64,000 bases of DNA, from the NCBI GenBank assembly GCA_012295275.1, contig CM022679.1, positions 19,964,001-20,028,000 on the forward strand, written 5' to 3'. Source of the stretch: Chrysomallon squamiferum. Taxonomy: Eukaryota; Animalia; Mollusca. Under the pieces are notes generated by a model that had not been told where the DNA came from, did no database searches, and worked only from the letters and a program-made list of their open reading frames with translations. The position numbers were made by a program, and so were the translations under genes. Positions 7,001 through 52,700 of this stretch are shown in pieces (positions within the stretch are counted from its first letter, which is position 1; each line of letters opens with the position of its first letter).

Positions 7001-10000
7001 TAAATAAATTTGTTCTATGTTTGGCCTTTTCTGTGTCTTTTGGGGACTATTTTCTGTTCTAGCCATTAAACCCCAATTTGCTAAGATATTGTTAAGTATT
7101 ATGGTATGGAAAAGACAGAGGATAGATTAATCATTATCAGAATGCCATAATGCCATAACTTCAAATGATAACACTTCTTCTAGAGGAATTTGTTTTACCT
7201 ATACTGTATGTGTTACTGTTCCTGTCAGTTTCTCCTACAGACTCTTCGGAAGATGTTCCTTCGACACTAAAGAGCTTCTCACATATTTGCTAAAATATTT
7301 TTTTTAAATATATTGTTAATTAATCATGTCACAAACTTTTTTTTTTTAATGAATGCAATTTCATTTTTCAGAACATATTTTATTTTATTGAAATAAATTT
7401 ATAATTAAGCCCTCTACTTTCACATTTTAAATTAGTCCACCACTGTGTATATGTGGCTTTATTTAAAAGTAATAAGTGCTACTAATATTTATACACTGCT
7501 GAAAACATAAATATTTAATTAAATTTAATGAATTTTTTGAAAAATCATCAAATTAAAATTATGTCAGCAGAAAATCACAGACAATTAAATTAATTCTGCA
7601 CCAACCTGAGCTTCTTTTCTAACCATCAAATAAGGAACATTTCCATGTAATGGATCAGGTGGTCCTCCGAATTCTTTTAACAGAAATAATTCAAAACATT
7701 TCATGTTACATATTTTATGCTGACTAATGGAATACAAAACAGTAAAATATTTAGGTTTCTATTAATAATACAAATTTTAATTTTCTAATTATATAAAATT
7801 ATTGGAAATGTTTTCTTTGAATATATAATACTTTTAATGAAAGGAAAAAATTTGAAAATAGAAAAATAAATTTACAAAGACTAATGTAAAAAATCTGAAA
7901 TTTCAACATTTTTTATTTTATTTTTTAAGAACAATAATTTTACAATTTAGATATTAATTATTTATATTTTCATTCTTTTTATATAACCTCAGCATAATAT
8001 AAGAAAAAGCTAAATGTTTGAAGTTAAAATGTTTATTTTATTTTACAATGTGACTTGAAAATATTATTAATTTATTAAATTTGAAATATAAAGATGTCAA
8101 ATTAAACATTTTATTTATAATATATACATACTTGTGGCAGCATGAATGCCATGTGACATTTTACGCAACCCATTCCTAAAGTTGGTATGTCCATTTTCAA
8201 TTACATATTTCATGAGTTTAAGAACCTGTTTGAAAACAAGCAATAAATAAATATATTTATAAAAACATGACAAAAAAATAAATAAAAATTAAAAAGGAAT
8301 TTTTTTTTTAAATTTCCTATATCTGAATTAATTTTAAGATTTTAACTCATTAAATACAGAGAAAGGTTAAAAAAAGAAAAACTAAGAGTACAGTGTAAAT
8401 TATATATTAATTTTTATTATAGGCAATTGCTCTTTTTCGTATAAAACATTCGTAACTGCACATAATTGTTTCGTTCATTTATGTATCTAGTCTAAATTAT
8501 TTTAAGTACATCTTGGACACTGAAAACAATTGTTTTGAACATAATTCCTGAAAAGAATTTGTTGATTATGACTTATTTTCAAAGTTAAGTTCTGATATGA
8601 CATTAGGTCGAAGCTTATTTAATATATTTTTAAATAATATAGAAATCAAATAAAAATGATACCTTAAATTTGACATGGTATGATTTTTTATCCAGACGTT
8701 CAACAAGAAATTCAAGAAGACTCTCACAGTAACCAGGTGACTCATAGCTAATGTCTGAAAACAAAACAAAAATAAACATTTATTATAAAATGTAAACAAA
8801 TATTACACAAAAAATGTAAACAAAGATCTAAAATCACTGATTTGTTTAATAAATGAAATACAAACTAACGTCAAATACAGAAATTTAAAATAATAAGAAA
8901 CAGTTCTAAATTAAAATGATTATATTATAACATTTGTAATTATATGGTTTTAAGAATTAAAAAAGCAACTTTTATTTAACAAATTGTTATTTAATTTCAA
9001 ATATCTCTGATATTATAAACTCAGAGTTTGGTGATTTGAATATAATTAGTGATGAAAACAATAATAATTTAAAAATAAAAAATGCATATTTATTTTTTTA
9101 AATTCATTTTTATTTATATAGATGTATTTATATAATTAACAAATTTACTATTAAATAAGAAGAATTACTATTTTCATCAGATCATAAAATGCTTCAAAAA
9201 TATTTATTTCCTGTTTGAACTGGATGTTATATAAATTAGTTATATTGTTATGTAAAACACTTACCATTGATTTGTTTGTACATATATCCAGGCACTGGGG
9301 AATCGTCATCTGAAGTAGCTTTCAGTAAAATACTAATCTAGAAATCAAAACAGTTAACAAATTAAACTGTCATTTACACATGATAAAATATTAGGCAACA
9401 TAAAAACTACATAGTAAAAAAAGATTTTTTTTTTGTGTTTTTTTTTCACAAATTCCCTTGATACACTATTATATTATATATTATATAAAAAAAATTGTTT
9501 CAACAAAAAAAAAAAAACAACAACAACAAACAAAGTATAAAACTGTCAGAAAAACATTTTCCAGCTTATTAAAGTGACAATCACTGATGAACTTCATCTT
9601 GAAGACAGTATTGCTATCAATGGAATTCTTAATTTTCAGTAAAACTTTGAGCTAAACTGTTTGTTGATTGTGGCAAAATGGAAATATTAGTAATCATATT
9701 AACATTATTTTTTAAAATAATATCCTAATCTTATTTCATTTAAATTTTATATGCAATCTAATATCGATCCAATGGTGAAGGATCCAATCAAGTCAACAAA
9801 ACAAAATACTAATATATATATTATATATATATAATAAAATAAACAAAGCATATCAAAGAATCATTTTAATTATTTGCATCTTGAATGATTATATTTATAG
9901 GAAATGGGAGCATAATTATTATTATACATCTATTATACATCTATTAAATGAATGAAGTCAAATATTTTTCATTTCAAATTTTAAAATGTAGTGTTAGATA

Positions 10001-10211
10001 TTTCAGCTCTATGTTGTCATGCCACAGTAATCTTTTAAGTTTTATAAAATACATAAATAGCACTTGTGAAACTGTATTAGTCAACCAACAATTATAATTT
10101 AACTATAGCGTATACGAGTAAATTTTATTATATAATAAAAAATAAACCACCCACCTTGTTCACAAATGTTATTCTTTGCGACATAAGATCTATAGTCTGG
10201 GATTCACTCAT
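4095..10211 (-). CDS. TEPSIN: AP-4 complex accessory subunit tepsin (ENTH + VHS-like), 12 exons, 434 aa
   Basis: Exons in transcript order: 10155-10211, 9265-9337, 8663-8754, 8132-8225, 7606-7673, 7199-7289, 6807-6884, 6343-6528, 5948-6074, 5447-5648, 4627-4761, 4095-4196. All introns are GT-AG with matching phases (1305 nt). The translation MSESQTIDLMSQRITFVNKISILLKATSDDDSPVPGYMYKQINDISYESPGYCESLLEFLVERL...KFKVLKLMKY...FGGPPDPLHGN...GFGN...HVPGRAGGGWDD matches tepsin hallmarks as I recall them (KGTSDDDxPxPGY, GPPDPLHGN, PGxAGGGW). A TACTAAC branch point precedes the exon-8 acceptor. Confidence 0.93.
5249..5400. repeat. Intronic tandem repeat (2 near-exact ~72 bp copies inside a degenerate AT-rich array) in tepsin intron 10
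   Basis: ATAAATAAATGAATAATAGTATATTAAGAAATATAACACCAATAGTAAATTTAGAAACATAAGAACAAT is repeated. It explains the spurious ORF 5056-5430. Confidence 0.8.
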
Positions 10212-11431
10212 TTAAAACATAGAACACCTTGTACAACCCTTTGCGTTTCGACTGTATACACCATACACAATGTACGGATTGGTCAATTTTGGTCAGACTG
10301 GTTTTGTCTAGATGCACTTCCTTTTAAATTTACATCCGATGTAAACATTAGGATGCATGTTTTATTAAAAGTTGGATCGGAATCGTAACTAAAACGAAAC
10401 AACATTTATAGATTAAATATTTCAAAGTTATCTAATAATAATGATAATAATAAACTATTTTTTGAGGTGATGTGTGATATTGATAACAATAAATTACTGC
10501 AGATATATTATGAAATGCTTTTATTTAATTTTAAACAAAGCACTGTTGCAGTAAAACTTAGATTCTATTTTATGATAAATTAAAACTGAATATTCTTCTC
10601 AGATATATTTATTATCTGAAATTGTTTTTTGTTGTTTATAATATATATATGTGTGTGTGTGTGTATTTACTGTTTACAAAATGGTCACAGAAAATAATTG
10701 TTGAATAACAGCTAAAGCAAATTCTAATAGAAAATGTGGCATGTTTCTTATATTTGTTATGTTAAACAAAACGACACTAAATAAACAAGTTTACTAAAAA
10801 CAAATTTAAAAAAAAATTAAATAATTAAAATAATAATAATAAATAAGTAATACTAATAATAATAAATAAACAAAAATTAAAGTAAAAAATATAATATTTT
10901 AAATAATTAAAATGATAAAATAATAATAATAATCAGATTAAAAATCTTTTTATTCCCAAAATTCAGCTTTAGCATTTGTTTTTTACCAGTAATGTGTGTT
11001 CTTCTGAAGAATGTTATTTATTTTTTAAATTTATCTTATATTTATTTTTTATTTTTAATATACGTTATCTAAATACCACCATAATTATAATAAAAATAAT
11101 AAAAACTGTATTTTACATGAATTAATTATAATATTAATTAAAGTCACGTTTTATTTTCTAACCGAACATTTGATAAATAAAAGCTTTCAACAGTTTCATA
11201 TTCTGTAAAAATCATAAAAATTAACGCAACAGCAGTTTAGGAAAACAATTACAGAAGTAACAAGTTTTAAAATCAGCCGTGATCATTTTTATCATTGGCT
11301 TTCAGTTTGACAAAACTTCCGCTCAAAAATGCATTTATTGTTTCCGGGTTACGAGGTTACTTCGATTGGTGACAAGGGTATAATGTACTTGCATTGAAGA
11401 AAATGAATGAAGTATTAAAAATAAATTAACA
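10212..11431. promoter_or_regulatory. Head-to-head (bidirectional) promoter region between tepsin and the TMEM72-like gene
   Basis: The divergent start codons are 1.2 kb apart. Two CpG-enriched patches lie at ~10230-10400 and ~11270-11400. Inverted CCAAT boxes (ATTGG) occur near 10278, 11294 and 11366, and ETS-like CTTCCG/TTCCGG sites near 11316 and 11342. Confidence 0.6.
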
Positions 11432-13134
11432 ATGCCAGTGGGACTTAAAACTGACGACTGTTGCTGTGAAGTCTATCTGTGGACGTGCAGAGTATCCGGT
11501 TTTTTAGCGGTACTAGGTGAGTGCTTTTTGTTCACCTCGTGGTATGAGTATGAGGTACCATTGAATGCCTTTGGGAAGACATCCCCTTTGTCAACAAGTT
11601 GAATATCATTATTAAAATTGTTTTTCGAATTTCGTTTATAATTAAATTATATGGGATGTTACTTGAATGAAAATGTCTTAAAATATTGTTAAATATTTTG
11701 TACAGAATAATGTAATAAACTTAGGAAGACAACAGAACCGAAATGAATAATATAAACATTAGTTGTTGAAGATCACGCCACGCTTTGGCATCTTGCCATA
11801 ATTCAGTTACCTAGGCTGTCCATAATTAGAGCTGTAATTGTATATCTGCATCAAATAGTTATCAGTGTTATATAATTATAATAAAATTATAAATTAGACT
11901 GTATATACATAATTATTTAACTCTTGATATCTGTTGTTTCTGTTAATAGTTTGTGTGAACAGTTAATCGACAGTGCACGTGCTTAACATTTAACAGTTTT
12001 AATTGCCAGAAGAATATATTCAAAAATAAGAATTAAAAATGTAAATAAATTATTATAACTGGAGTAAATAAAAAACAATAATGAAAAAAATAGGAAACAA
12101 ATAATAAATATTGATAAAACAGGCATCTTATGTTACAAAATGAAATAAAATCGGCAGTAATTTTTTGTCATCATAACCATCACTAATATTTATTTCTCTA
12201 TAGTAATTTATTATAAATGCAACAAATTTTATCTCCACATATTTCTCAGACAGTTATTTATGTAGTATTACTCCACTGAGAAAACACACACATACAAACA
12301 AACAAACAACAACAAAAAATAAAAAACATCTTGTTATCTCAGATTTATTTTAAATACATTTCTGCCTGGAACACATTCAGTGAACTGTGTGCATCTTACA
12401 ACAATATAAATAACTTTACTAACATCACCCTAGTCAGCTCTTGGTTGGAATAAATTCTGAAAAAAATCATTTACAAAAATCTTTTCTTTTTTAAGAAAAC
12501 AAGCTTTAAGACAACAACAAAAAATTCAACCCAGGCACTGCTTTGTGCTATGTATCTGTATTGTTCTGTAAATGTGATTTTTTCTTTTTTAATTTGTTTG
12601 GTCTTTCATTAATTTTGCTGGAGGGTTGGGCTAATTAAAGGTGAAGAATATTGATTTGATATTCACTGTTGAAATAATCTATGAATTGCCACCACAGATT
12701 CTTGAGGCTATAATTAAGTAACCACATATAGGTATTCTGTTGGAAATAGCTCTACTTGGTATTTTAAATGTTAAAAACTATGAAAAATAGGAATAATTTT
12801 GAAAAGATAGGCCTTTTAATGTGTTAAATAATATGACACAGATTTAGAAACATCCCTGCCACATACACACACATGCACATACAAATCTAAATATTAGTCA
12901 TTCTTTGTTCACATTAGAAATCTGTGTATGTGTGTTTTTTCTGTTGATAAATTTTTAAAAAAATTTCAGTCCTCAGTGGAGCTGGAGTGGAAGCAACCTA
13001 TTATGGACACATGCTTGGAATTTATTTACTGTAAGTATGTAAACAATTAAAGTGCTGAATTATAAACAAAATAAACAAAATTATTTTTGTATAAATTAAA
13101 ATAGCTTTCACAGGTACAAGTAACTGTTCTTTTA

Positions 13135-21073: not shown

Positions 21074-22361
21074 TTCAGTAGATTATGTTCAGGTGACAGG
21101 TACAGAATGGTTTATTAAGTTCTATAACAGGCTTATTTTAAGTGAACAAATTCTCTGTGTGATAACATCTTGGTCTGAAAGATAAATCTAATATTTACAC
21201 GATTCATTTTGTAAGAAATTGGTATTTGAATTGTACTAATAATTTGCTTTGTACTTATAGCATAAAATAGTCATGTTAGGAGTTCTATAATCTTTCTTTT
21301 TCCACTTAACTCTGTTAAATGTTTTAATGTTATTTATGTAAGCAGGGTGTACATTGATATAGATATATTTTGAAGACATGAAAAATTGTTGGTTTTTGTT
21401 GTTGTTTTTTTCAATTACACAATAGTATGTAAACAAATTTAGAACAGTTACTTTTCCAGCTTTGAATTATTGCTTAGGAATCAAAATTTGTTTTTAAAGA
21501 TTTAAAGTTATTTGCAGACTTGCTGTCTAGTTACTTATCAAGAAAATAGAAACTGATTAAAATTTACCAAATTTAAATAAATTCTATAATTCAAATAATA
21601 ATGATTAACTTTTAAAAAATAATAATAATTAAAAAAAAAAAAAAAATTGTTTTGATCATTTTTGGAGTACATAATTTTTAGTGATTATTTATTGAACTGA
21701 TCTGTAAAAATGTCTCTGCAAAAGACTTGTAAAATGAGGATTTCCATACATGTGCTGCTTGCTTCATTTCATTAAAAATCTTTTTCATTGTAATTAACTG
21801 TCACATTCTAAAATGTCAGTTTTTAAGTAAAAAATATTTTTCCAGTTACCTGTACTCTCTGTTTATAAAATTTCATTGTTTAAAAAAAAAAAATAATAAT
21901 AAATAAAAATTATTCTTTATTGAATCTTTATTGTTTTCTTTTTTTTTTAATAATAAAATAAAAATAAACTTTTTTCAACATCAAAGATTATGGTGCACAG
22001 CTGAAAGTTTAATTTTTAAAATAAAAAAAAAAAAAAAAGAATATACCTTCTCTTCCTTTTAGTACAAAATTAGTAATACAAATTTACAAATTTTTTTTCT
22101 TTCAGTAATCTCTATTTCAAATTATTTATTTATTTATTATTATTACTATTTAATTTTTAATTTTTTAATTAACATTTTTTTTTTGTAATGGTCTTTAGCT
22201 ATCTTATCTGATGCATTATATTTCCTTATTTTCTATTACTGTATTAATATTTTTTTTTATAAAAATCAAAGTATTTACAAAAAATAATAATAATAATAAA
22301 ATGTCTTATGTAACTTAGTTTAGAGACTTGATCATTATCCCATCACACATTCTGATTACTA

Positions 22362-23895
22362 TTTATTTAGTTTTGAAATATATTTTATCTTTGGCTATGA
22401 CATGTTTTTGTTTTTGCATTTGTAGAAATTGTTTGCTGTGACATATTTGCTTTTTTCCACTTTTGTGCATTCGATGTATTTAATGCATTAAAATATATTT
22501 TTACATTTTTGGTTTATTTTTTATTTTTCATACTGCTGTTTGAATGAATAAATAAATAAATAAAATTTAAGAAAATATATATAATAATTAAAAAATAAAA
22601 TAAAAGTCCCTTGGATGTCATTGAATATTAGTTAACCCATTTTATCTTTTTTATCTTGAGCATGATTTGATTGTATATATATTACAATCAATCTTTGAAA
22701 TCAGTCATTATGCAAATGCTCAAACAAATGAGTCAGACACAACCATGAAATAAACAAAATAGTTGAAAATTCCAGCTACTTAACAAAATAACTGAAAATC
22801 ATGACCAGGCATTATATAAAATGACTAAAGTGCTCTCTGTAATACCACACCACTTGAATCTTAATGTAACACTTTATGTAAACTCAAATCATGGATGATA
22901 ACCAGCCTGGGTCACACAATTTTAGTTCTGCTGTGAATTCATTTCCATTGTCACTGGGTAATAGATGGGCACCAGTGAGAAGGAATTTATCAGGCAGGTG
23001 ATCAGCGACCTCTACAGCATGATTTGAACTTAGGGCTGGAAGAAGACAACGTTATTCAGGTTTTGATAGATAAAAATCAACTTAAATAAATTTTGGACCA
23101 TGGACATAAATGTGATCAAAATGTCAGCTGTGGAAAAGGATGGGTACACTGAGTAGGGCAGTCATTTAACTAATAGGCACACATTAACTGGCAAAAAGAA
23201 TCTTCAAACAGAATTCAGGATATTCTGGTGTATTGATATGTATGTATGTACATGTGTACACACACACACTCACTCATATTCATACACACACACACACACA
23301 TAATTTCTATGCTGTGTATACTGTACTTTTAAATGTGATAATAATGTAATAATTGTAATATTAAACTGATATAATACTGTACTTTGTTAAGCAAAACCAA
23401 GTGGCTGAGTATATTAATATACATGTATGTAGCAATACTGCATTAATAAACTGAATTTTTGAAAGTACTTTTAAATTTATTTAAGCAACTATACTGAAAA
23501 AATAAATAACGTGCCAACTTTTCCAAATTTGTATAGTGCCATTTCTTCCAGGTGCCATTATTTCCTACACCCACTTTGAACACCATCTGAGAGTAAAATG
23601 CATTCTCAGGTTTGATAGCACATTCTGATATGGCATGTTGTACATTTCAGCATCTTGCTCATCATTTTCACTTAAAATATCAAGAGAAGCTTCTTTCTCA
23701 GAATATATTTGTATTTGAATGAGCAGACTCTCTTTCTTTCATTAACAGCAATTTCATAAGGAAAAGAAACAGTCGAGTTTCCAGTGATACTGGTTGCTGT
23801 TTCTCAGGCGTTATACATGATGAGGGCACTAGAAGATTCATAAATGTGGCCATCAGTTGTTGTTTTTTTTTTTTTTTTTAGCCAGGTATGGACGA
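22362..23895 (+). repeat. Long direct repeat, copy A (~1.5 kb)
   Basis: Collinear with 30436-31805. The core 22603-23652 is near-identical to 30633-31682. Copy A has an extra 119 bp (23651-23769). Confidence 0.97.
22891..23048 (-). pseudogene. Decayed rve-type integrase/transposase fragment (KRBA2/SCAND3/Ginger-like), copy A
   Basis: The minus strand reads CLLPALSSNHAVEVADHLPDKFLLTGAHLLPSDNGNEFTAELKL, then frameshifts into LVIIH. This fits the pattern typical of these integrases (CxLRPLxSKxAxEVAxxLxDIFxxxGAPxILQSDNGxEFT...ELKxLWPxLxIxHG). Confidence 0.7.
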
Positions 23896-24539
23896 CTGTG
23901 CAACTAGGAAGCCCCCCCCCGTCAAGTAACCCTCTCCTAACACATTCTGTTTACAGATGATCACATTTATATCAAAATTGAAAGAACACAGAAATATGGT
24001 GCCGAAAACGACCGACAAAAACCAACATATAAAATAAACGTTTTGATGCAATTAGTCGCTATTACTGTTTTCCAGTTTGTTAATAGTATCTTTTTATTTG
24101 TTGAAGATAACTGTGAATGTGTTTGTACTAATCAATTTGTTTTCGGCCATTATGAATTTATCTTAATCAGAAATTATAATATATGTTTATGAATATTAGA
24201 AATTCAGTTTAATCCATACTAAAGAATTGAATTTGTTAAAAGAAAAAGTACATGTAATAGGGTGAAGCGTGAAAGAAGCTGAGATAACGCCGAACCCAGC
24301 TAAGTCTTGCAGTTAACAAGACATCAGTAATATTCATTTATTGAACAGTGTGTTAAGATGACACTCTTGTTTATGATAAAATACGAATCTGTGAATTTAT
24401 ATTTCTTATTAATTGGAAATGGTTATATTTCATTACATTCATATTTTATTATTCTGATCATTAAAATTTTATTTTTGTTCACCCGTATTTACATCTTACT
24501 CAAATGGCGATAACTTGTCTTTTAAAATCGCTTTACGCT

Positions 24540-24665
24540 GAAAGATGTGTTTTACGTAGTTTGACGACAATGCGCGATGTGGTTCATGTCGACGTCATTA
24601 GTTTAAACCAATCGAAACGCTGTTGTCATGGTTAGACAATTGATCAATTGTTTTAACAATCAGAT
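24540..24665 (+). promoter_or_regulatory. Putative CpG-rich proximal promoter of the AT-hook gene
   Basis: Local CpG cluster; CRE-like GACGTCA at 24591-24597, CCAAT at 24608-24612 and X-box-like GTTGTCATGGTTAG at 24622-24635, just upstream of ATG 24666. Confidence 0.45.
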
Positions 24666-27600
24666 ATGGCTCCAACGGGTAAGCGTTTAGTTGTAATATA
24701 TAATTTGATCAGAAAAGAAAATGGAAACAAAAACACTAAAGAAATAAGACTGGGAAGTAAATAATTTATCCAAATAAAAGGAATTAATTTAAAAAAAAGA
24801 GTAATTTAATTTAGAACTTAAAATCATCATGCCGTAATCATACCTATTGATATTTAAGTGTATGCCCTAATAATTCACAAACTATTTAGTTTTTAACGAT
24901 ATCAATAAATTTTACATTTCATTTTATATTTCCTTAATACTAGAAAGTTGTGAAAAATGTATTCAAATGTTAGGTTAAATGTTCTATAAAGTTATATTTA
25001 TTTATTTATTTAAATATTTATGTATCTAAAATATCACTTATTATAACTTATTTTATTTTTAAAGTAGGGAAAATATTTAGATATTTCATAAAAAAAAAAA
25101 AAATAAATAAATAAATAAATAAATAAAAAATTAGGTCAGGATAATATTCTAAGGGTATCGCAATCTGACAAAAGACTGGTGACCGACGTGTGTGTGTGTC
25201 TGTGTGTGTAAAAGATGTTACGTTTTGAAAGCTTCTTGCGTTCTCATCTGTACAGAGTTCGTTCTTGTTGTCAGCATCTAATATTTTACCGATTTTTCTC
25301 GCACATAATCACTGTCATTAGATAGTCGAAAAATAAAATGGCAAGAAAATGCATGCTTACGAACCATTCGGATCCACGTTTTCTTTTTTGCAACGATTTC
25401 ATTTTGTAAGTTTTTTATTTCAAACATCTGAATGTTTATTACCCATTTCGGAAAGAAAATTAACATTACGGAAAACATCGTATTAATGGTTACTGAAGGA
25501 TTTCAGTAATAATTTTATATTCAAAAGCGTTAAAAGCTTTCACTTAATCTGTGGATGATTTCGGGAACTTGCGATGGTCAAAACTCAAATGAATTTTCAC
25601 TTTAATAATATACTATGTTATATAAAATACTACACTATATAGGTATCACAATCTGTCAATCCCACAGAGATATAGATGACAGAAACAGGAGGTATGTAAA
25701 TACAAACCACGGGTACCGAAATCGAAATCGATGTTGAATAGATGCTGATAGTGACAAAAGTGCTATTTTTATTTTGTTGGGAAACCAGTGTCATTTCTAC
25801 AAACGTCGAACTTAACAGAAAACTCTTGAAACAGTGAAACCCAGTTAAACTGCAGCATAAGACAATCCCCAGTAAATATGGTAATTAGCAGACCATCTCA
25901 GATTGTATATTTAATATTAACATCACTCATTTACTGATTTTCAGAAAATCGCAGTGGCAGAAAAAGGGGAAGGCCAAGAAAGGGTGAGTAAATATTTTTG
26001 ATTATTATACTTCATTAAAGGTTTTTAAAGAAGACTGACTTTTTTATTTTTTATCATTTCTTTCTCTGTCACTCCTCTACTTTTTCTTTTTTTAAATAAA
26101 TGATAAAAAGAAAGAAAGAATGGATAATTTATATATTGTTTTCAAAAAAAATTTAAATATCTTAAAATGTCAGTTGATTTCTTATAAAGAAGTATCGGTT
26201 CGGGTAGTTTTTAGACTGTTACAAAGTTGAGGATTAGGGCCAATCTTCTCAGATAGTCCATTGCTTAAGTGACAACACTGAAACTCCATAACTGCAGAAT
26301 AAAAAAATAAGAGTTTGTTGTAGGTAAACTGTTAAATAAAAACTGGATGTAAATGGCCTTGTGGCATTTAACCAGATTTGAAGGCTTTATTTGAAGTTAA
26401 ATTTCAAGGCCAGTGGTCATATTTTTTCTTCTGACCATTTGTCATTCAGTAACAACATGTTTAAGTGTGCCAGATGACTCCCTTGCTGTTTTCAGTTTGG
26501 TAATAAACCTTCACAGCCAGTTTTATCATGTACTGATTGCATGTGAACAGCCTGCTATATTCTCAAAAAATATACTTTGCCAATCTACCTTAGCAAATAT
26601 TTTGTTTTTCAGTTGGCAATTTATATTGCTGTGTTATTACGTTTGGTTCATGTTCTTTTTTAATTCATAATTGTGCATTTTACTATGTAAATTATTTTTA
26701 GTGCTTGTTACATCTACACATGTAATAAAAATGACTTTTTTCTTACTGTAACTCTAATTCCATTAGAAAACTACAACATTTTTATATATATATATATATA
26801 TATAAAACCAAGTATGATTGAACAAAATAACAGGAAGTGTTTGTCTGTTCAACTTAGATTTCAGTGAGATTAAAGTTCAAACTTCTATATAAATAAATGT
26901 TTTAGAGACTTTTAATATTTGATCTTCATTTTATTTATATATTCCGAATTGACAAGTGTGAATGATTTATTATTATTATTGTTATTATTATTATTACTAT
27001 TATTATACTTATTATGTTTATGTTTATTCCTATTCCTATTAGTATTAGCCTTGACCAGACATCTTAGTGTAAGAAATTTCTCAGTGATATGATAATTAGC
27101 ATGAAAATTAATAATAATATATTTCATTTATATTAATTTTAACATTACTGATTTTCAGAACAACCTAAAAGAGGTCGTCCCAAAAAAAGTAAATATATAT
27201 TTTTAATTCTATTTTATGAATTTTTTTTAAAGAGTTGATTTCTTTTTTTTTTCTGAAATTTTGTTCTGGTACTACAAAGTCTAGTTTTTATAAAGAAATG
27301 TCAGTTGATATCATATATTTGTTTGGTACTACAAAGTCTAGTTTTTATAAAGAAATGTCAGTGTAGGGTCAGTTACAGAGTATTACCAACGGCAGGATTA
27401 AGTCAAACTAAGTCACCAAGCACAGTGCAATAGCTTTGTGACCATCATCCCCCACCATTGCTGAAGTAACAACACACTGGACTCCATAACTGCAGATTAT
27501 TAATATGAGTATAAGAATTTACAAACCTTCTTCTGGCCAAACAAAATAATTTAACTGAATAAAAAGTGGAGTTCAGTAACTTTAATACTAAACCAAAGGA

Positions 27601-28944
27601 AATGTGACTCCCTGAAAATGGACTTAAGCTTACTGAAGTAAATACTTCGTCTCTGCACTACTCATTTGTCTAGCCTAAGGGAGCAACTGGCTTCCATCCT
27701 TTAAAGTATAAAGTTTGATGATTTGGTTAACTTCAGTATACACAGTATAAATCACTTTAAAAGTCAACAACAACAATAACAAAAATAATGATGATGACGG
27801 TAATGATGATGCTAGGTTTAATACAGGCACCAGCCTTTATCAGACTGTATTACCTCTAAAATAATTTCCTTGTGAATTATCTTAAAAGACAAATCAATAT
27901 CATATTTTTAAAAACTCATTCAAGTAATTCTTTGCATGGTCATCTTGCTAAATAAGATCTGTGATACTTTATACGACAGTTTTTGGTTTCTTCTAGGACA
28001 AAAATGACAAATAATTGAAAAACTGAAAGAAAAACTCCTTAATTGAATTTACCTTTCCAAATAACAATAACAGTTTTAATATAAATTTTTCTTTGAATCT
28101 AACTTTACAGTATTAATCATAAACATTAAATATAACATTCTGTATTTTCAGAAGACACACTAAAGGGCACAAAAAAAAGCAGTGAAAGTAAATATTATTT
28201 TGGTATTATTACATATTTTATTTTATGAAGGACTAATGGTTTAGAATAGTTTGAAAAATGAGAATTATTGTCAGATGATGTAAATCTAAAACAAGAAAAG
28301 AAATGAAAGAAAGAAAATCCAGTTTTCAGAATAGATAGACTCTGGTTTTGTTAGGTTTCATTATGTGGTTTACTCAGGTGAAAATGTGTAGAAACCAAAC
28401 ATTGCTTGTTTTGTTAGACTGCCTTTTATTGTAGATCTGTGTTAGATAAGGTAGACTGCACTGTTAGCAGGAACTCATTAAAGAAATGTTTTGTAATTTA
28501 TTTTCTTTCCAGAGAGAACCCAAAGAAAAAGAAAGGTACAGCTATAATTTTTTTAATTTATTATATTGTCACAAAGGGAGTATGTCATTTCATTAATAGT
28601 AAATTTATGTTAAATTTATGTGTAATCATCCTAAAAATAAAATAAATGTTTTGTCAACTTTCATTTTATGTAATTAAATATGCAAATAGTTCAGTGAGAA
28701 TAAGACAGTATGCAAATAGGTTTGTTGTTTTTTCTCTCATGTTAATGCTATATTACCACTGTAAAGAAATGCTGTAACAGCAAACATTAGTAAAATAATC
28801 AATTGTTAAACATTTTAGAAAAAACGATTGCACACACCAACACCACCGCCTCCCGAAACACTCAATGACACTTACAAGTATCGTCGGTCGAGAAGAACCA
28901 AAACGCTGTCAAGTAGGGGTTTCATGAGAAACCCTTACGTTTAG
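24666..28944 (+). CDS. Small basic AT-hook protein (HMGA-like DNA-binding motifs, no acidic tail), 6 exons, 88 aa
   Basis: Exons 24666-24678 (13 nt), 25945-25983 (39), 27159-27188 (30), 28152-28187 (36), 28513-28535 (23), 28819-28944 (126). All introns are GT-AG with phases 1,1,1,1,0, giving a 267-nt open frame: MAPTENRSGRKRGRPRKEQPKRGRPKKKDTLKGTKKSSEKRTQRKRKKKRLHTPTPPPPETLNDTYKYRRSRRTKTLSSRGFMRNPYV*. It has two AT-hooks (RKRGRPRK, PKRGRPKK) and 33/88 residues are K or R. Confidence 0.72.
25150..25660. mobile_element. Possible non-autonomous element in intron 1 of the AT-hook gene
   Basis: CpG-rich block with a (GT)n tract near one end and CTTTAATAATATACTA near the other (Helitron/Helentron-like end). 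It is bounded by GGTATC(G/A)CAATCTG(A/T)CAA direct copies at 25154 and 25642. Confidence 0.3.
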
Positions 28945-29655
28945 TTCAGGTGAAATTGTTTACTGTACATTTTATTTAAAGTCAAGTTCATTTTTGAGGT
29001 AGCACTCTAGTTAAAGTGAAATTATTTCTATTATAAAGCCTGTATTTGTTTTAAACAGTATTGTCAAACCTCTTTAAAACACAAACATTGGTGTTAATAT
29101 TGTTTTGGCATTAAAGTGACTTTGGGTAACAATAAATTTTCTCAGGTTATGAATTATTTCAATACTGACCCAAAAATGTACAGTGCTTTGTCCACTTCTC
29201 TTAGAAAATAACATAAAAAAAGGCTGAGATATAAACTGCTTTATTTAGATAAGCTGGCAAGTCAGAAAAAACAAATCATTGAACCCAGATTGTCATTTGC
29301 ATGCATGTTTTACAAAATACTCTAATGAATAATGTGTAATATGTAATACTTGCTTGTATTTAAAAAATCTGAAACAATTAAATAGCAAAATAATGTTTTT
29401 TATCATGAAACAGTTTGCAAATTGATGGTGGTTTATCAGGTAATTATCTATGTGTTTACATCAGTAAATTTATGTATTCAGAAAACTGGTGGTCAAGCAT
29501 TGTCAGGACAGAAAACAGGGATAGCATCAAACCAGGGGACATTATAAAGAGGTTTGACCAGAATTCATTTTATGTAATGAAATTTAGAAAAACAAACAAA
29601 GTGGTATTTTAAAAATTGCAAACTGTAACACAAATACATAATTGAATTTTTGTAG

Positions 29656-29835
29656 AAACAAAGAAACAATCTGACTTGTTCTCAACAAAGAAAGCAGAAC
29701 TTTTCCATCTGGCAGACAACACCTAGAAAAGGGCGACTCATCCTCTTCCATCCTACAGGAACTGGGCTGACATCACCTGCACATGGAGACCCATCTTCAT
29801 CTGTCGCTATTCACCATCAGCATGATGTCAATTAG
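29656..29835 (+). CDS. Candidate alternative terminal exon of the AT-hook gene (59 aa C-terminus), or 3' UTR exon
   Basis: Acceptor TTTTTGTAG|AAA at 29655/29656. The phase-0 open frame KQRNNLTCSQQRKQNFSIWQTTPRKGRLILFHPTGTGLTSPAHGDPSSSVAIHHQHDVN* is compatible with the phase-0 donor at 28535. Confidence 0.4.
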   Translation, partial: KQRNNLTCSQQRKQNFSIWQTTPRKGRLILFHPTGTGLTSPAHGDPSSSVAIHHQHDVN

Positions 29836-30285
29836 CTATGAAGTCAATTCTTCATCCGTTGCTATTCCCCACTAGCAACAGTGATGTTCTCAACCATCAG
29901 CATGATGTCAATTCTTCATCCGTTGCTATTCCCCACTAGCAAAAGTGATGTTCTCAACCATCAGCATGATGTCAATTAGCTATGAAGTCAATTCTTCATC
30001 CGTTGCTATTCCCCACTAGCAACAGTGATGTTCTCAACCATCAGCATGATGTCAATTCTTCATCAATTCTTCATCCAGTTGTTCTCAACCATCAGCATGA
30101 TGTCAATTCTTCATCCGTTGCTATTCCCCACTAGCAACAGTGATGTTCTCAACCATCAGCATGATGTCAATTCTTCATCCATTGCTATTCCTCACTAGCA
30201 ACAGTGATGTTCTCAACCATCAGCATGATGTCAATTAGCTATGGAGTCAATTCTTCATCTGCCGATATTTCCCTGCCAGTGACAG
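29794..30285 (+). repeat. 64/80-bp unit minisatellite with an internal inverted repeat
   Basis: Unit CATCAGCATGATGTCAATT[AGCTATGAAGTCAATT]CTTCATCCGTTGCTATTCCCCACTAGCAACAGTGATGTTCTCAAC. GTGATG anchors lie at 29881, 29945, 30025, 30140 and 30204. Confidence 0.95.
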
Positions 30286-30435
30286 CAGAGTTCCTTGTGA
30301 TGTGCTGTTGGATCTCGCCCTCTTTCACTGACATTTCCCCGCTTTGCCAGGAATACAAACATTCTGCAAAATATCATAAATATTAACTTTTTTGGAAAGG
30401 AGTTGAGAACTATTTTTCTTTGGCCAATTTTATTC

Positions 30436-31805
30436 TTTATTTAGTTTTGAAATATATTTTATCTTTGGCTATGACAGGTTTATGCCTTTTGCCACTTTTG
30501 AGAATTAAAATATATTTTTTGCATTTTTGGTTTCTTTTTAATTTTAGATACTGTTGTTTGAATAAACAAAAAAAAAAAAAAAAAAAAATAATAATAATAA
30601 TAATAATAATAATAATTAAAAATTAAAAAATAAAAGTCCCTTGGGTGTCATTGAATATTAGTTACCCCATTTTATTTTTTTATCTTGAGCATGGTTTGAT
30701 TGTATATATATTACAATCAATCTTTGAAATCAGTCATTATGCAAATGCTCAAACAAATGAGTCAGACACAACCATGAAATAAACAAAATAGTTGAAAATT
30801 CCAGCTACTTAACAAAATAACTGAAAATCATGACCAGGCATTACATAAAATGACTAAAGTGCTCTCTCTAATACTACACCACTTGAATCTTAATGTAACA
30901 CTTTATGTAAACTCAAATCATGGATGATAACCAGCCTGAGTCACACAATTTTAGTTCTGCTGTGAATTCATTTCCATTGTCACTGGGGAATAGATGGGCA
31001 CCAGTGAGAAGGAATTTATCAGGCAGGTGATCAGCGACCTCTACAGCATGATTTGAACTTAGGGCTGGAAGAAGACACCGTTATTCAGGTTTTGATAGAT
31101 AAAAATCAACTTAAATAAATTTTGGACCATGGACATAAATGTGATCAAAATGTCAGCTGTGGAAAAGGATGGGTACACTGAGTAGGGCAGTCAGTTAACT
31201 AATAGGCACACATTAACTGGAAAAAAGAATCCTCAAACAGAATTCAGGATATTCTGGTGTATTGATATGTATGTATGTACATGTGTACACACACACACTC
31301 ACTCATATATTCATACACACACACACACACATAATTTCTATGCTGTGTATACTGTACTTTTAAATGTGATAATAATGTAATAATTGTAATATTAAACTGA
31401 TATAATACTGTACTTTGTTAAGCAAAACCAAGTGGCTGAGTATATTAATATACATGTATGTAGCAATACTGCATTAATAAACTGAATTTTTGAAAGTACT
31501 TTTAAATTTATTTAAGCAACTATACTGAAAAAATAAATGACGTGCCAACTTTTCCAAATTTGTATAGTGCCATTTCTTCCAGGTGCCATTATTTCCTACA
31601 CCCACTTTGAACACCATCTGAGAGTAAATGCATTCTCAGGTTTGATAGCACATTCTGATATGGCATGTTGTACATTTCAGCAGTTGAGTTTCCAATGATA
31701 TTGGTTGCTGTTATACATGAATGAGGGCACTAGAAGATTCATAAATGCGGCCATCAGTTGTTTCTGTTTTGTTTTGTTCTGGGTTTTTTAGCTGGGTATG
31801 GATGT
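30436..31805 (+). repeat. Long direct repeat, copy B (~1.4 kb)
   Basis: Collinear with 22362-23895, offset about 8.0-8.1 kb. Confidence 0.97.
30920..31077 (-). pseudogene. Decayed rve-type integrase fragment, copy B
   Basis: Same SDNGNEFTAELKL-containing fragment as in copy A. Confidence 0.7.
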
Positions 31806-33859
31806 CTGCTAAATTCTGGAATTACTCATTTTACCAGGAAATTTATCCTTTGTCATCATTAGCACCAGTTAGATAATGTTCATAGCAAAAGCCTGAAAAC
31901 ACAGTGAATATATGACAAAGATAAAATATTTAAATAAAATATATAATTATATATACAGACTTATTTCTGTAGTTAAATGATATTTGTACCTCTTTGCACA
32001 CACTCACTGATAGATAGAAACTCTATTTCTCTAACTTATTTTTATTTTTACACTAATTAGAAAAATAAATGTATTATTCCACTGTTACTAATTGGTTAAT
32101 TCTAAGTGCATCTCTGATTAATAAAAAAATAAAATAATAAATAAAACAAAATCTGTCAAAACAACAAGGATCAAGACTGAGTATCTTTGATGGAAATGGG
32201 AGGGATATGTAGAGGGATGGCATTTATGAACAATTTCTATTTTGCTGTGGAGTCGGACACAAACTATTTTATCAGAAATCAAGAACTAGATGTTCAGGAA
32301 GACTCAAGTATAAGTCCTAGTACTGAGAAATATTATGAGAAAAGAAGATATTTTGAATATGTAAACAAAAATGAAACATAAAATAAAAACTTTATTCGAT
32401 TTAAATATAAATCAACCGAATTTATTAAGTTCTTTTCTCTGATTGGATGCCTGGGGCCACCACCCCTTTGGCTCCTGCCTCTGTACACCACTGCCTGAAT
32501 ATGCACTGAAAAATACAGATCTCTATTTTTGTTGAAAAGGAATTGTAACTCAGTTTTAACAGAAAAATATTGTCACCCCAGAGTGGCTTCCCTTGTAAAT
32601 CTACTCATTAATTTAGATGTATGTTGTCGATATCCAAGTAATCTGGTAGTTTGTCCTGCACCTCCAACAAACAGCGACTCATTCTCCTCCACTAAGAGTG
32701 CAGCTTCTCCCTACCCAGCTGACCATTGATTCTCTCCAAATAAATAAATGTTCAGTGTTTGATAGCTGGTTTGTTTTATGAAAAGAAAAAGAAAATGGTT
32801 TATTTTACTGACTTATTATTGTTAACATTAAGAATAGTTTTTGAAAATTGTAGAAATTAATCAGGTTAAAAAATAATATAGATAGATATATCCTGCTTAT
32901 TTAATACTAGATAAGGACATCTATTAAAAACCATATTATATTATCCTACATCATTTCAACATTATTTTTTTTCCTTGAAAACTTAATGAAGCTGCTGTAG
33001 ATTTATTATAATGAAATTATAATATATAAAACAAAAACAAAAACCCAAAATCATAAATTGAAAAATATTTTCAGAAAGCATATTAAGGAAAAAAAAATAA
33101 AAAAAATTCATGTAATACACACATAATATTTAAAACATACTAGAAATAACAGTAACCGTACAAGGATCAGATTTAGTGAAACATGCTTCTTGAGCAGATT
33201 ATGAAATTTGAAACTCATCTCCATTTTTGAAACACAGGGACTGGGATACATCTGGGAGAAATACCTATATAATAATAAATATAATGAACAAAAAACAAAA
33301 CCACACACACACAACAAAAACCAACAAGAAAACCATCATTAAAAATCCCCAAATTAAAATTATTTCTGCCTCTCTGGAAACATCATGGAAAAAGTCAATA
33401 AAATTATTCATTATTTATGATGATAATTTGAAACATAGGAAGCACTGGTGTACTGACTGCAACAGAAGAACATGTTTAGTTTCTTATGGTGCTGTAATCA
33501 CAGATTTATACTAAGGGATTAGAAGAAACCATAGAAAGTAGCTATGTCTTCTTAATCCATTTGCTTATGTAATCACAAAGCAAGCTGGAATAAACCAAAA
33601 CTAATTACCAGAACCTTTTGTTCATAATATTCAAATATGCAAATTTTCTATAAGAATGTTTACTCTGAAACTACAGCAAAAGTTGAATATAAAATTATTG
33701 TATAATAATAAATAATTAACATTAAGAAATTATTTAAATCATTATAATCCTTGTTTGTTCTTAAAATGTAATTTTATCATTAATTAAGATCCAGATCATA
33801 TATACAAATGTCAACAATAAAAACTGAACCATTTCAGTCAATCTGTGAAATGGCTGTGC

Positions 33860-34311
33860 TTCAAAGGTCACATGTATGTGCACAAGAAAGACTGGATTCA
33901 CTGAGTCCGCCACAGTAAACATTCCAGTGAATGTAAAGGTGCTCTCAGATGCAGCTTTACCTTCTGAGAAGTCAGGATCTTTTGTTGATCACAACCAGCT
34001 TCAGCTACGACAATACAGTTTCAAAAAGATGAATGAACATCTTGAAAAAATTGGATTGAGGGATTCCACAAAAACGTGGAGTACTGCAGCATCAGAGGTA
34101 CCTCCAAACTTTCTGCAGTCAAATTCCTCAGGAAGAAATTCAGATTGATTGTAAACCAGTGTTGTAAGTGTTGTTGTTAATATATATGCTTTTGTTAAAT
34201 GAGCAAATAAACTTCCTTATTTGATGTAATTTTCACTTGACTGGTGCTGGGCAATTGTTCATTTTTTTACTTTTGGTTGAGCAAATGTCCAGTGAGCAAT
34301 GACCTAGCACC
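33860..34311 (+). mobile_element. Probable Mutator (MULE) transposon remnant
   Basis: Broken frames give KGHMYVHKKDWIH*...SECKGAL...DHNQ (FLYWCH-like) and IEGFHKN (like the NNxxEGWH motif of MULE transposases). GG-terminated inverted repeats GGTGCTGGGCAATTGTTCA / TGAGCAATGACCTAGCACC lie at 34243-34311. Confidence 0.4.
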
Positions 34312-49700: not shown

Positions 49701-52700
49701 CAGTTTATTGGATTTTCTAATTTCCATTAGCCTGTCAATATGAATGAAGGTTATTGGCTTCACGAGTAAGCAGCAGTCTCTTTGGATACAAGATTTCTCT
49801 CAGAGTGAGTGGGTGTACAACCTGTCTCTATCTAATTTTGCCCAAAACTATTTGATTCCTGTGAAAGGCAGCATTCTTCCAAGCTGAGCATTATTGCAAT
49901 TCATTATTGTAAACAGAGTAGCAAGAATTATTTAATAAGCTGACATATTTCTGAAATGTCTTTTAGAATTTAGATAATAGTGACGTAAAGGAAAATCAGA
50001 TATTTTATCACTTTTCATTAATAAATATGTTTTCAAAGAATAAAATTTTAAAAAGAGACCATTTTATTGTTACTCAAAAAAAAAAAAATAATAATAATAA
50101 AATAAAATAAAAACAAACTAAGGAAAAATAAATAACCATAATAAATCTCTGAATTATTAAATATTTCTGATGAAACAACCTTAACATGAAAACTGCTAAG
50201 GCAACATTAGGATTACGCTAACAACTAACAACTGGATTTAAAAAAAAAAAAAAAATCTTTTTAGGTGCACTTTCAATATAAAGAGGAAGTAATTACAGAA
50301 GACTTTCATACACATCCAGCGAGACTGTTCAAGTGGTTTTAATGAATGAACTCAAAGCAATTTATGCATCAGTAAGCACTTTTACCACAAAAGTGCAGTT
50401 TCTTTATGCAAGTTTAACCGATTTATTCAAAGGATTTATAACACACATTATTTCCAAACTTTATTCAAGATGATTCTTATTTTCATTACATAATAAAGTA
50501 CTCAAAAAAATAAGAATTTTCTATCATCTATATATATTTTACTTATTACATCTTTGAATGGGTTAAATAAAGAAACATTTCTTGTTTATTCATTTAATAC
50601 ACCAAAAACGACACTATCAACAAATTAATAAAATGAATCATTAAAAATTTTGAATTGTAACTCAAAACTTGGAGCACCTGTTTATAGACCAATCCTCAAA
50701 ACTGCACCTATTAGCCATTTCCCTCCACTCACTGTCCTCCTACTGGTTTGCCAAAAAAGGCAACTGTGTGTATTTTAAAATGTTTGAGAAGATGCTGTTA
50801 CTTTTATAAATTTGATTTTACTTCAAAAAAAAAAATTATTATTACCATTATATTTTCTTTTCCTTTTGTTAAAGAATAAAAACCTACAAATCAAGAAAAT
50901 GTTTTTAGTGAAACAAATTCCAAAGGAATTATTTATATTAACCAGAAAGGATAGCTAGTGACATATTTCCACTGGATACATCATCTGTCTTATTCACACA
51001 TAGCTAACATTCTCCAGCATGATCTGAATCATCTGTCATTAAAGAAAGTGCATCTAGAGTTTGTTTTGTTTATCTATTAACAAATATTATTTTGACCCTA
51101 TGGTATCCTGTGAAACTGAAATAATATTTATTTAACCACACTGTAACAAATGTGATTTTTATATTTTTTAATTCTTTATTTGTTTTTTATTTTATTTTTG
51201 CAATGATTACATACAAAAGAAGAAACCTGTTCCTGTCTTTCCATTAACAGAAGCAAAGATCTTTGATATTTATATGTGTACATTTCAAAATTATCACTTG
51301 CTATTCTATTAATATTTCTACTATTATTAAATTTAACTTTGTTATTTTAAAGCATAACTGTTGATTTCAGTAATTTGGAAGTAAGTTAATTTACTATTAT
51401 ATTAATATTTCTACTACTAATAAAATGTGACATCATGTATTGTTGTAGCATAACTGTTGATTTCAGTAATTTGGAAGTAAGTTAATTTACTATTATATTA
51501 ATATTTCTACTACTAATAAAATGTGACATCATGTATTGTTGTAGCATAACTGTTGATTTCAGTAATTTGGAAGTAAGTTAATTTACTATTATATTAATAT
51601 TTCTACTACTAATAAAATGTGACATCATGTATTGTTGTAGCATAACTGTTGATTTTAGTCATGCGAATATGAGTTAGTCAGTGAATGATTTATTTCATTT
51701 AAGTATCATAAGATGAACTTTACTGCTGGTTTCATTTTCAATGAAGCAGTCTCAGTGTATCATATTTCAATTTAATATCTTAGTGATTCCATTATAATGA
51801 AGTCAGACTATCACGGTCAATGTATCTCACTGATTTCAGTATCTCAAACAGTCTGCTTATGGTCTGTGACTTTGTTTACTAATATCTGCATTCTGAAAAC
51901 ACCTATATTGTCACACCTAAGACATGATTGCTATGTATATACAAAGACAGATCTGTAGTCCATACATTAGTTATTATATATAACAAATGTCAATCAATCA
52001 ATATGCATGCTCACTATATGAATTTACTTTAATGTTATCTGACACAGACTGTCAACACATTAAACTGGGACTGGTAGAACAGGATTACACCAACTCTATT
52101 ATGGTGATGAAAATGTTTAGTTAGACCATCTATTAATATTATTAAATTACTCAGGTATAAACTGCTTCCTCATTACATCTGACACCAAAGACATATCTCT
52201 GACATAAACAAGTATATTAAATACATTTTTAATAATTTATGAATAGAAATGATTTTGCCTGTAAATATTTTAAATATTTTCCTTCAGGTTTTCAAGTTAC
52301 AGATACAATTTTTGTTTTGTTTTTGGTCCTTTACCAACAAATTAAATTACTTTAATGTCTTTAAAATACTGTTTTCAACAAATGCAGATTTTTTGGGGGG
52401 ATATGCAGTTTTCCATAAACATTATTGCATAATCATAAATATCTATAACAAAAAAAGGGCTTTAAAAAGTTTCATTTTAACCAGTATAAGCTATTTACTC
52501 TAAGGGAATAACATACATAACATGTTAAGATCAAGAAGTAACATGTAAAAGGAATGACACAGGGACTAGCTGAGCAAAGATATGACAAGTATGAATGCTA
52601 GACACAGACAGGGGCAAACAAAGCTTTCTATCCAGTGACAACAGTCTGCCTAAAGATGCCACAAGTCCAAAGGGCAAGCTTTAAATGTTTGAACAGATTT

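What the first reader, a model, noticed from the sequence alone, without database searches (positions are those of the whole stretch)
24666..28944. Hidden micro-exon gene for an 88-aa, highly basic double AT-hook protein
Seen: five exons of 13-39 nt plus one of 126 nt join with canonical splice sites and matching phases into one ORF. It encodes two textbook AT-hooks, each in its own symmetric phase-1 exon (HMGA genes also have one hook per exon). The protein is 37% K+R, with a TPTPPPP linker and an RRSRR tail. It lacks the acidic C-tail of HMGA and is invisible to ORF-based annotation. Inference: a lineage-specific AT-rich-DNA or satellite-binding protein, or a sperm nuclear basic/transition-like protein, in a very AT-rich genome. 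With its repeat-flanked context, this is the best candidate for an undescribed system here.
Basis: partly seen in the sequence, partly recalled or inferred. Interest (0 to 1): 0.8.

Follow-up and report, generated by a model that had tools for sequence, protein, structure and literature searches.

The report
Vent snail's tail-less AT-hook gene
In what is likely a deep-sea vent snail, a gene built from tiny exons, four of whose five coding joins appear in RNA, is predicted to make an 88-amino-acid, strongly basic protein with two AT-hook motifs and no acidic tail, likely one member of a small, fast-changing family of DNA-packing proteins, although this copy's start exon was not seen in use.

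Summary
The gene is real. Six exons give an 88-aa ORF (33 K+R, two RGRP hooks), and RNA contigs from one study join exons 2-3-4-5-6 at GT-AG sites. RNA also corrects the model. Exon 6 splices on, 5 nt after its stop, to a seventh, untranslated exon. The ATG exon was never seen joined. Instead exon 2 was joined to two donors in the upstream repeat arm, which gives no start codon. The ATG exon is still likely a true first exon, because it sits in the window's strongest CpG peak. One RNA run carries a divergent, high-depth paralog. The host is close to Gigantopelta aegis (Peltospiridae). It is not an HMGA: two hooks, no acidic tail, no further coding exon seen. Exon 6 found no homologue in three sequence searches; the hook exons were too short to search. 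Tail-less AT-hook proteins built by exon duplication are known in Xenopus. Sperm or satellite roles are untested. The 'repeat-flanked system' is a local 1.5-kb duplication. This scan had not noted the gene elsewhere. Verdict: new variant of a known kind, interest 0.35.

The parts
22356..23895 (+). Left arm of a direct duplication; holds two cryptic donors (after 23059 and after 23239) that are spliced to exon 2
   Evidence: blastn and arm alignment; loose ends before exon 2 in X1 and X3 match these places, read by eye (table 7); junction frames
24451..24665 (+). Likely promoter and 5' leader: strongest CpG peak of the window, with CCAAT at 24608 and a CRE-like CGTCA at 24593
   Evidence: CpG o/e 1.86 against 0.26 window-wide; motifs; promoter activity inferred
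24666..24678 (+). Predicted coding part of exon 1 (ATG, 13 nt, phase-1 donor)
   Evidence: sequence; donor matches 7 of 9 consensus positions and is the only such in-phase candidate in the CpG peak; junction NOT seen in RNA
25945..25983 (+). Exon 2, AT-hook 1, symmetric phase 1
   Evidence: joined to exon 3 in X1 and X3
27159..27188 (+). Exon 3, AT-hook 2, symmetric phase 1; a tandem duplicate of exon 2 with its flanking intron
   Evidence: joined in X1 and X3; module alignment score 174 against a null maximum of 88 in 200 random pairs
28152..28187 (+). Exon 4, Lys-rich, symmetric phase 1
   Evidence: joined on both sides in X1, loose end supports the 3' join in X3
28513..28535 (+). Exon 5, polybasic (NLS-like, inferred), phase 1 to 0
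   Evidence: joined in X1 and X3
28819..28949 (+). Exon 6: Pro-rich linker, RRSRR, stop at 28942-28944, donor 5 nt after the stop
   Evidence: joints 28535/28819 and 28949/29656 in X1 and X3
29656..29780 (+).
   Evidence: tables 5 and 8; tandem array
30430..31805 (+). Right arm of the direct duplication (core 98.8% identical to the left arm, outer ends 87.6% and 92.2%)

Best explanation
This is a spliced seven-exon gene, likely a young copy of a small fast-evolving family in peltospirid-like vent snails, whose predicted 88-aa product would work like a tail-less HMGA: two AT-hooks would grip the DNA minor groove and the basic C-terminal half would hold the backbone, likely in a restricted tissue or stage. 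Shown: exon structure, splicing of exons 2-7, origin of hook 2 by duplication of the hook-1 exon with its introns, and a divergent transcript with the same exon 4-5 join and exon 6 donor. Inferred: the gene has its own CpG-rich promoter and ATG exon, which is quiet in the libraries examined; there, transcripts arriving from upstream (likely run-on from the TMEM72 gene through the left arm) splice into exon 2, skip the first exon because it has no acceptor, and carry no start codon for the hook frame. Inferred: the segment came from an unmethylated locus and now lies between duplicated local DNA. Inferred: without an acidic tail the protein (net charge about +27) would bind and compact DNA more strongly than HMGA, with Thr-Pro sites at residues 53 and 55 as possible phospho-switches.
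For: Joints at five GT-AG introns in X1 at contig depth 15.3-19.2 against 2.8-7.4 for its listed unspliced pieces; three joints in X3. Hook codons of exons 2 and 3: pS 1.07, pN 0.12 over 7 codons. In X5 the one listed change in exon 2 is synonymous; 2 of 3 visible exon 6 changes in the X2 paralog are synonymous. The paralog has 7 letters in place of 17 at the start of exon 7, as expected of UTR (table 5c). CpG o/e: 1.86 at the predicted promoter, 0.87 in the coding exons, 0.59 across 23900-29655, against 0.26 in CNOT6 core exons, 0.08 in tepsin exons, 0.11-0.18 in arms and flanks; in oyster low methylation goes with tissue-variable expression (PMC3840415, passages). Read-through transcripts typically skip the downstream gene's first exon (PMC6862657, passages). 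pI 11.9, no acidic residue in the last 20.
Against: The exon 1-2 junction was seen in 0 of 3 RNA runs, and unspliced contigs cross the exon 1 donor in all three. Both 5' junctions seen give no protein: one makes a stop at the join, the other has no Met. All RNA is from one study and is contigs, not reads; X3's spliced depth (2.7-4.3) equals its background. Over all 9 comparable hook-exon codons pN is 0.31 and the excess of synonymous change is only P about 0.055, with the motif chosen after the fact. Pfam did not call the single hook tested. Xenopus XHMG-AT-hook1, with 8 hooks and no tail, failed to bind AT-rich probes (PMC3723657, section 16). The link to TMEM72 was not seen directly.
Confidence: 0.5

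Rival explanations
1. This copy is a silent or decaying duplicate. The protein is made only from a paralog elsewhere; the window's copy is read only by run-on transcripts that lack a start codon.
For: Only ATG-less 5' junctions seen, in 2 of 3 RNA runs. The highest-depth transcript (93.6, X2) is the paralog. The segment differs in CpG content from its flanks and lies between recently matched arms.
Against: All coding exons, phases and splice sites are intact, donors match 6-8 of 9 consensus positions, and the ATG and CpG-rich promoter-like region are present.
Confidence: 0.25
2. It is a spermatid transition-type or sperm nuclear basic protein: made in the gonad, it would replace histones and condense sperm chromatin.
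For: 88 aa, 37.5% K+R, pI 11.9, within the 30-106 aa range of protamines (PMC12216123, passage). Fast divergence: 8 of 12 residues differ at the start of exon 6 in an X5 copy (table 7, compared by hand). High CpG o/e; the paralog was seen in only 1 of 3 RNA runs.
Against: Lys equals Arg (16 and 17), no long Arg or Arg-Ser runs. Spliced RNA is found in libraries labelled metatranscriptomic, tissue not given. No paper holding AT-hook, mollusc, sperm and protamine-like together.
Confidence: 0.15
3. It is a basic, disordered RNA-binding or nucleolar protein in which the hooks act on RNA or as localisation signals rather than on AT-rich DNA.
For: HMGA1 hooks also bind RNA (PMC7013770, passage); XHMG-AT-hook1 bound partners such as NPM, PTB and hnRNPK but not AT-rich probes (PMC3723657, section 16). 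The hooks miss the strict HMGA 9-mer.
Against: Both hooks keep RGRP with basic flanks under apparent constraint; no RNA-binding domain was found in the pieces scanned.
Confidence: 0.07
4. The exons are the front of an ordinary HMGA or of a longer known AT-hook gene with further coding exons.
For: One hook per exon, as in HMGA (PMC7353061, passage); a further exon does exist downstream.
Against: RNA runs through the stop in exon 6 before splicing on; exon 7 is closed in the hook frame after 7 codons and carries a frame-breaking difference in the paralog. No acidic stretch. No hit for exon 6.
Confidence: 0.03

Closest known systems
HMGA1/HMGA2 (PMC7013770 and PMC7353061, passages; PMC3723657, passages)
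   Same: About 100 aa, basic, RGRP hooks in separate exons, composition of a disordered protein.
   Different: Two hooks instead of three or four, neither fitting BBXRGRPBB; no acidic tail, a basic one instead; hook exons are phase 1 here (HMGA2's are phase 0 by my recall, not checked); stop in the penultimate exon.
Xenopus Hmg-at-hook1-3 (PMC3723657, passages and section 16)
   Same: Lineage-restricted, no acidic tail, hooks multiplied by internal exon duplication.
   Different: 6-8 hooks and up to 327 aa there, 2 hooks and 88 aa here; orthology untested and not implied. XHMG-AT-hook1 did not bind AT-rich probes.
Sperm nuclear basic proteins: protamines, protamine-like proteins (PMC12216123, PMC13251019, passages) and mammalian transition protein 1 (search listing only)
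   Same: Small, very basic, fast-evolving.
   Different: Lys as frequent as Arg, no long Arg clusters, two AT-hooks, seven exons; gonad expression untested.
Satellite-packing AT-hook proteins: mouse HMGA2 on major satellite (PMC13192832, abstract); Drosophila D1 (recalled)
   Same: AT-hooks in an AT-rich genome (window GC 27%).
   Different: No target satellite identified here; D1 has many more hooks (recalled).
Read-through (conjoined) transcripts (PMC6862657, passages)
   Same: [quoted passage not shown]
   Different: Here the donors lie in a duplicated arm rather than at a penultimate exon, and the upstream source was not mapped.

Membership tests
HMGA | Small protein of about 100 aa | tested here: met
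   88 aa, on the predicted exon 1
HMGA | Three or four AT-hooks | tested here: not met
   Two RGRP in the ORF and in the whole window
HMGA | Hook consensus BBXRGRPBB (PMC7013770) | tested here: not met
   0 of 2 fit the strict 9-mer; 2 of 2 fit basic-RGRP-basic-basic
HMGA | Acidic C-terminal tail | tested here: not met
   0 acidic residues in the last 20, at most 2 in any 15; RNA shows the stop followed by a UTR exon
HMGA | Hooks in separate exons | tested here: met
   Exons 2 and 3, joined in RNA
HMGA | Orthology to metazoan HMGA (sequence, synteny, intron phase) | not testable with these tools
   Hook exons too short to search; no host genome held; HMGA phase 0 is recalled only
AT-hook motif (Pfam PF02178, accession recalled) | Profile match | tested here: inconclusive
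   No hit for one hook in a 28-aa stretch with intron-derived flanks; the spliced protein was not scanned
AT-hook proteins | Minor-groove binding of AT-rich DNA | not testable with these tools
   Needs EMSA or ChIP; a Xenopus tail-less relative in kind was negative (PMC3723657)
Protamine (P-type SNBP) | Arg-rich with Arg clusters, pI 12 or more | tested here: not met
   17 Arg and 16 Lys of 88, pI 11.87; criteria from PMC12216123 passage
SNBP or transition protein | Spermatid-specific expression and presence in sperm chromatin | not testable with these tools
   Tissue of runs X1-X4 is not given
Xenopus Hmg-at-hook type | No acidic tail; hooks multiplied by exon duplication | tested here: met
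Xenopus Hmg-at-hook type | Six to eight hooks, about 300 aa | tested here: not met
   Two hooks, 88 aa
snoRNA host gene | Intronic snoRNA | tested here: not met
   0 Rfam matches at E up to 1 in 23900-30430; undescribed RNAs would be missed

The most novel reading that the evidence does not exclude
Peltospirid vent snails have evolved their own family of sperm or spermatid chromatin proteins from AT-hook micro-exons rather than from histone H1: a fast-diverging, copy-number-variable set of tail-less two-hook proteins that condenses an AT-rich genome and has been missed by all annotation.
Probability: 0.15. Interest if true: 0.7.

Novelty: new variant of a known kind. Interest (0 to 1): 0.35.

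Why it matters
If the protein is made, it is an unannotated chromatin protein family in a mollusc, with a visible history: a hook exon duplicated with its introns, the gene duplicated, and the linker turned over while the hooks held. It gives a direct test of what a naturally tail-less two-hook protein does, and, should it prove gonadal, of an origin for sperm proteins other than H1. It is also a clean case of run-on splicing hiding a gene's real first exon. The parts (AT-hooks, tail-less variants, exon duplication, read-through) are all known, so the surprise is moderate until function or tissue is shown.

Tried and rejected
No host genome is held, so paralogs could not be mapped. Exon 6 (41 aa) found no relative: 2 candidates and none at E up to 10 among 73-2000 aa proteins, none among 22-72 aa, 0 at E up to 0.001 among 1.84 billion representatives, no usable Atlas hit, none in Pfam, NCBIfam or PDB. 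These are weak negatives: one short exon, and micro-exon genes are poorly annotated. A 31-nt exon 6 pattern had 0 matches in JGI metagenomes. Rfam 0: snoRNA-host idea dropped. A second in-phase first-exon candidate at 25676-25691 (donor 7 of 9) was set aside because its ATG is altered in X5 and X2 contigs (table 3). A high exon 4/5 module score was an overlap artefact and was dropped; non-overlapping tests of exons 3/4 and 4/5 were not convincing. An intron 6 polyA isoform (AATAAA 29131) has only background cover. The arms carry, on the minus strand, a broken reading that resembles a KRBA2/SCAND3/Ginger-type integrase core by my recall, but Pfam, PHROGs, NCBIfam, PDB, plasmid tblastn and a metagenome scan all gave no supporting hit: unconfirmed. 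The arms show no LTR-like behaviour I could test. The sigma-70 scan is irrelevant to an animal. Reads were laid only on 23900-29780, so the 5' extent of the arm-derived transcripts, the paralog's first exons and the end of exon 7 stay open. X5's 3-4% divergence from the window could not be calibrated on a control locus, so allele versus paralog is open for it; its summed depths are not copy numbers. No structure was predicted (short, basic, likely disordered). Paper searches: AT-hook + Chrysomallon 0; HMGA + AT-hook + evolution + mollusc + exon 1 irrelevant; AT-hook + mollusc + sperm + protamine-like 0; searches gave no precedent. The library lacks most subscription papers, and no supplements were read; gene lists in snail genome supplements could hold this gene.
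Full report
Observation. The six exons are at the stated place. 24666-24678, 25945-25983, 27159-27188, 28152-28187, 28513-28535 and 28819-28944 join through GT-AG introns into an 88-codon ORF with 33 Lys+Arg, pI 11.9 and net charge about +27. RGRP appears twice in the six frames of the window, both times in AG/GT-bounded exons of this gene; 0 of 100 local shuffles gave two. Both hooks read basic-RGRP-basic-basic, but neither fits the strict HMGA 9-mer (PMC7013770, passage).

Setting. The neighbours are tepsin (minus strand, Pfam PF25827), TMEM72 (plus strand, PF16054; last coding exon read to a stop near 16840) and CNOT6 (minus strand, eight exons mapped). The large CNOT6 exon is 88% identical to Gigantopelta aegis LOC121379569 and 64% to Haliotis. 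The host is therefore likely a peltospirid or related neomphaline vent snail (lineage) other than G. aegis; the species was not determined. No whole genome was available.

RNA. Five runs hold part of exon 6 and the DNA behind it: four RNA runs of one study and one run of unrecorded kind from another. I laid X1, X2, X3 and X5 on 23900-29780; all are contigs. X1 shows GT-AG joints 25983/27159, 27188/28152, 28187/28513, 28535/28819 and 28949/29656 at depth 15.3-19.2, against 2.8-7.4 for its listed unspliced pieces. X3 shows three of these joints and a loose end that fits a fourth, at background depth. So 4 of 5 coding junctions are seen, and a seventh exon begins at 29656, spliced 5 nt after the stop. 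That spacing should escape NMD if exon 7 is last (50-nt rule, recalled).

The first exon. The 24678/25945 joint is absent in 0 of 3 RNA runs showing it, and unspliced contigs cross that donor in all three. Instead the letters before exon 2 match the left repeat arm: up to 23239 in X1 (255 or more letters; that stretch is the same in both arms) and up to 23059 in X3 (one base favours the left arm). The first join creates a stop and the second has no Met in the hook frame, so these RNAs cannot make the protein. The predicted exon 1 is still well supported by DNA. It lies in the strongest CpG peak of the window (14 CpG in 250 nt, o/e 1.86 against 0.26), behind a CCAAT and a CRE-like motif, with a donor matching 7 of 9 consensus positions. 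Skipping of a downstream gene's first exon is the usual form of read-through transcripts (PMC6862657, passages). I infer run-on from the TMEM72 side, but did not see the link; a back-splice from the right arm or a second tandem copy is not excluded for X1.

Paralogs and constraint. X2's listed unspliced pieces differ from the window by 0-2 letters, yet it also holds a divergent spliced transcript at depth 93.6 with the same exon 4-5 join and exon 6 donor. In the last 30 nt of its exon 4, read by hand, 4 bases differ (one synonymous, two residues changed, no indel). In exon 6 three differences are visible, two synonymous; 127 table rows were not shown, so more may exist near the ends. Its first 47 nt of exon 6 do not align, and it has 7 letters in place of 17 at the start of exon 7, which fits UTR. 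The contig extends 171 nt before exon 5; exons 2-4 would take 105, leaving 66, which fits a short first exon but was not aligned. X5 has a DNA-like copy whose exon 6 starts in frame with 4 of 12 residues kept and the Pro run lost, and a 22-nt exon-5-like variant that would break the frame. In X5's contig over exon 2, 17 of 18 differences are listed; one lies in the exon and is synonymous. Exon 3 with its flanks is a duplicate of exon 2 with its flanks (score 174, null maximum 88 of 200 pairs; aligned introns 69-77% identical). Over the 7 hook codons pS is 1.07 and pN 0.12; over 9 codons pN is 0.31 (P about 0.055, motif chosen after the fact).

The flanking repeats. They are one direct duplication, 22356-23895 and 30430-31805, with a 98.8% core and 87.6% and 92.2% ends. 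That pattern suggests an older duplication with later homogenisation (inference). The arms and flanks are CpG-poor (o/e 0.11-0.18), the gene segment is not (0.59; coding exons 0.87 against 0.26 for CNOT6 core exons). In oyster CpG o/e tracks methylation and low methylation goes with tissue-variable expression (PMC3840415, passages). I infer a tissue-restricted gene copied into a methylated neighbourhood. The arms contain a broken reading that recalls an integrase core, but six searches did not confirm it.

Mechanism. Most likely (0.5) the family makes small tail-less AT-hook chromatin proteins that bind the minor groove through two hooks and the backbone through basic runs, in a restricted tissue, and this copy is a young but intact member. 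Against this: no translatable transcript of this copy was seen, all RNA comes from one study, and the Xenopus tail-less multi-hook protein did not bind AT-rich probes (PMC3723657, section 16). Rivals: silent duplicate (0.25), sperm or transition protein (0.15), RNA-binding or nucleolar protein (0.07), ordinary HMGA or longer gene (0.03).

Comparison. It would work like HMGA but is not filed as one: hook number, strict consensus and acidic tail were tested and not met. It shares its design with Xenopus Hmg-at-hook, without evidence of kinship. It fails the Arg-cluster test for protamines (PMC12216123, passage). Exon 6 has no relative in three sequence searches, the Atlas, Pfam, NCBIfam or PDB; the hook exons could not be searched. 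Paper searches found no description, within the library's limits.

Papers seen: PMC7013770 (passages, outline), PMC3723657 (passages, section 16 whole), PMC6862657, PMC12216123, PMC13251019, PMC3840415, PMC7353061 (passages), PMC13192832 (abstract). No supplements. Recalled without a call: HMGA2 intron phases, the NMD rule, D1, the integrase consensus, the Pfam accession of the AT-hook.

Verdict. A real, previously unnoted micro-exon gene of a small fast-evolving family; a new variant of a known kind. Interest 0.35, rising to about 0.7 if it proves to be a sperm chromatin protein (probability 0.15).

Noticed in passing
window 62199-63665 (-), joined to 53228-41494 (-): CNOT6/CCR4 form in which a single exon of about 490 codons with no convincing Pfam match precedes the nuclease domain; relatives of about 880-910 aa with only PF03372 occur across snails, chitons and bivalves. 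It seems to stand where the LRR domain would be (recalled).
   Followed up: partly
window 30913-31190 (-) and the matching part of the left arm: Broken reading with SDNGNEF and upstream blocks that resemble a KRBA2/SCAND3/Ginger-type integrase core by recall; six searches gave no confirmation.
   Followed up: partly
window 29794-30273: Tandem array of 64/80-nt units, about six copies, just inside the predicted 3' UTR exon; the X2 paralog diverges from the window before it, at 29698.
   Followed up: no
window 25676-25691 (+): Second in-phase ATG micro-exon candidate with a good donor; its ATG is altered in X5 and X2 contigs.
   Followed up: partly
window 24290-24518: X5 holds a form lacking these 229 nt just upstream of and into the CpG peak (depth 195.5; table 5).
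   Followed up: no
window 25151-25400: Second CpG-rich patch (13 CpG, o/e 1.39) in intron 1 around a GT microsatellite; possibly a short repeat element or enhancer.
   Followed up: no
window 10000-12000: CpG-rich region between tepsin (-) and TMEM72 (+), likely a shared promoter.
   Followed up: no
window 33849-34145 (+): 99-codon open frame in a GC-richer island between the right arm and CNOT6; no Pfam hit, Atlas hits only under 0.8.
   Followed up: partly
window 51301-51659: 96-nt tandem repeat, 3.8 copies, 94% matches, in a CNOT6 intron.
   Followed up: no
window 29613-29780: X5 has no cover here although it covers 29 of 30 bins, and differs from the window by about 3-4% across the locus; allele, paralog or filter is unresolved.
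   Followed up: no
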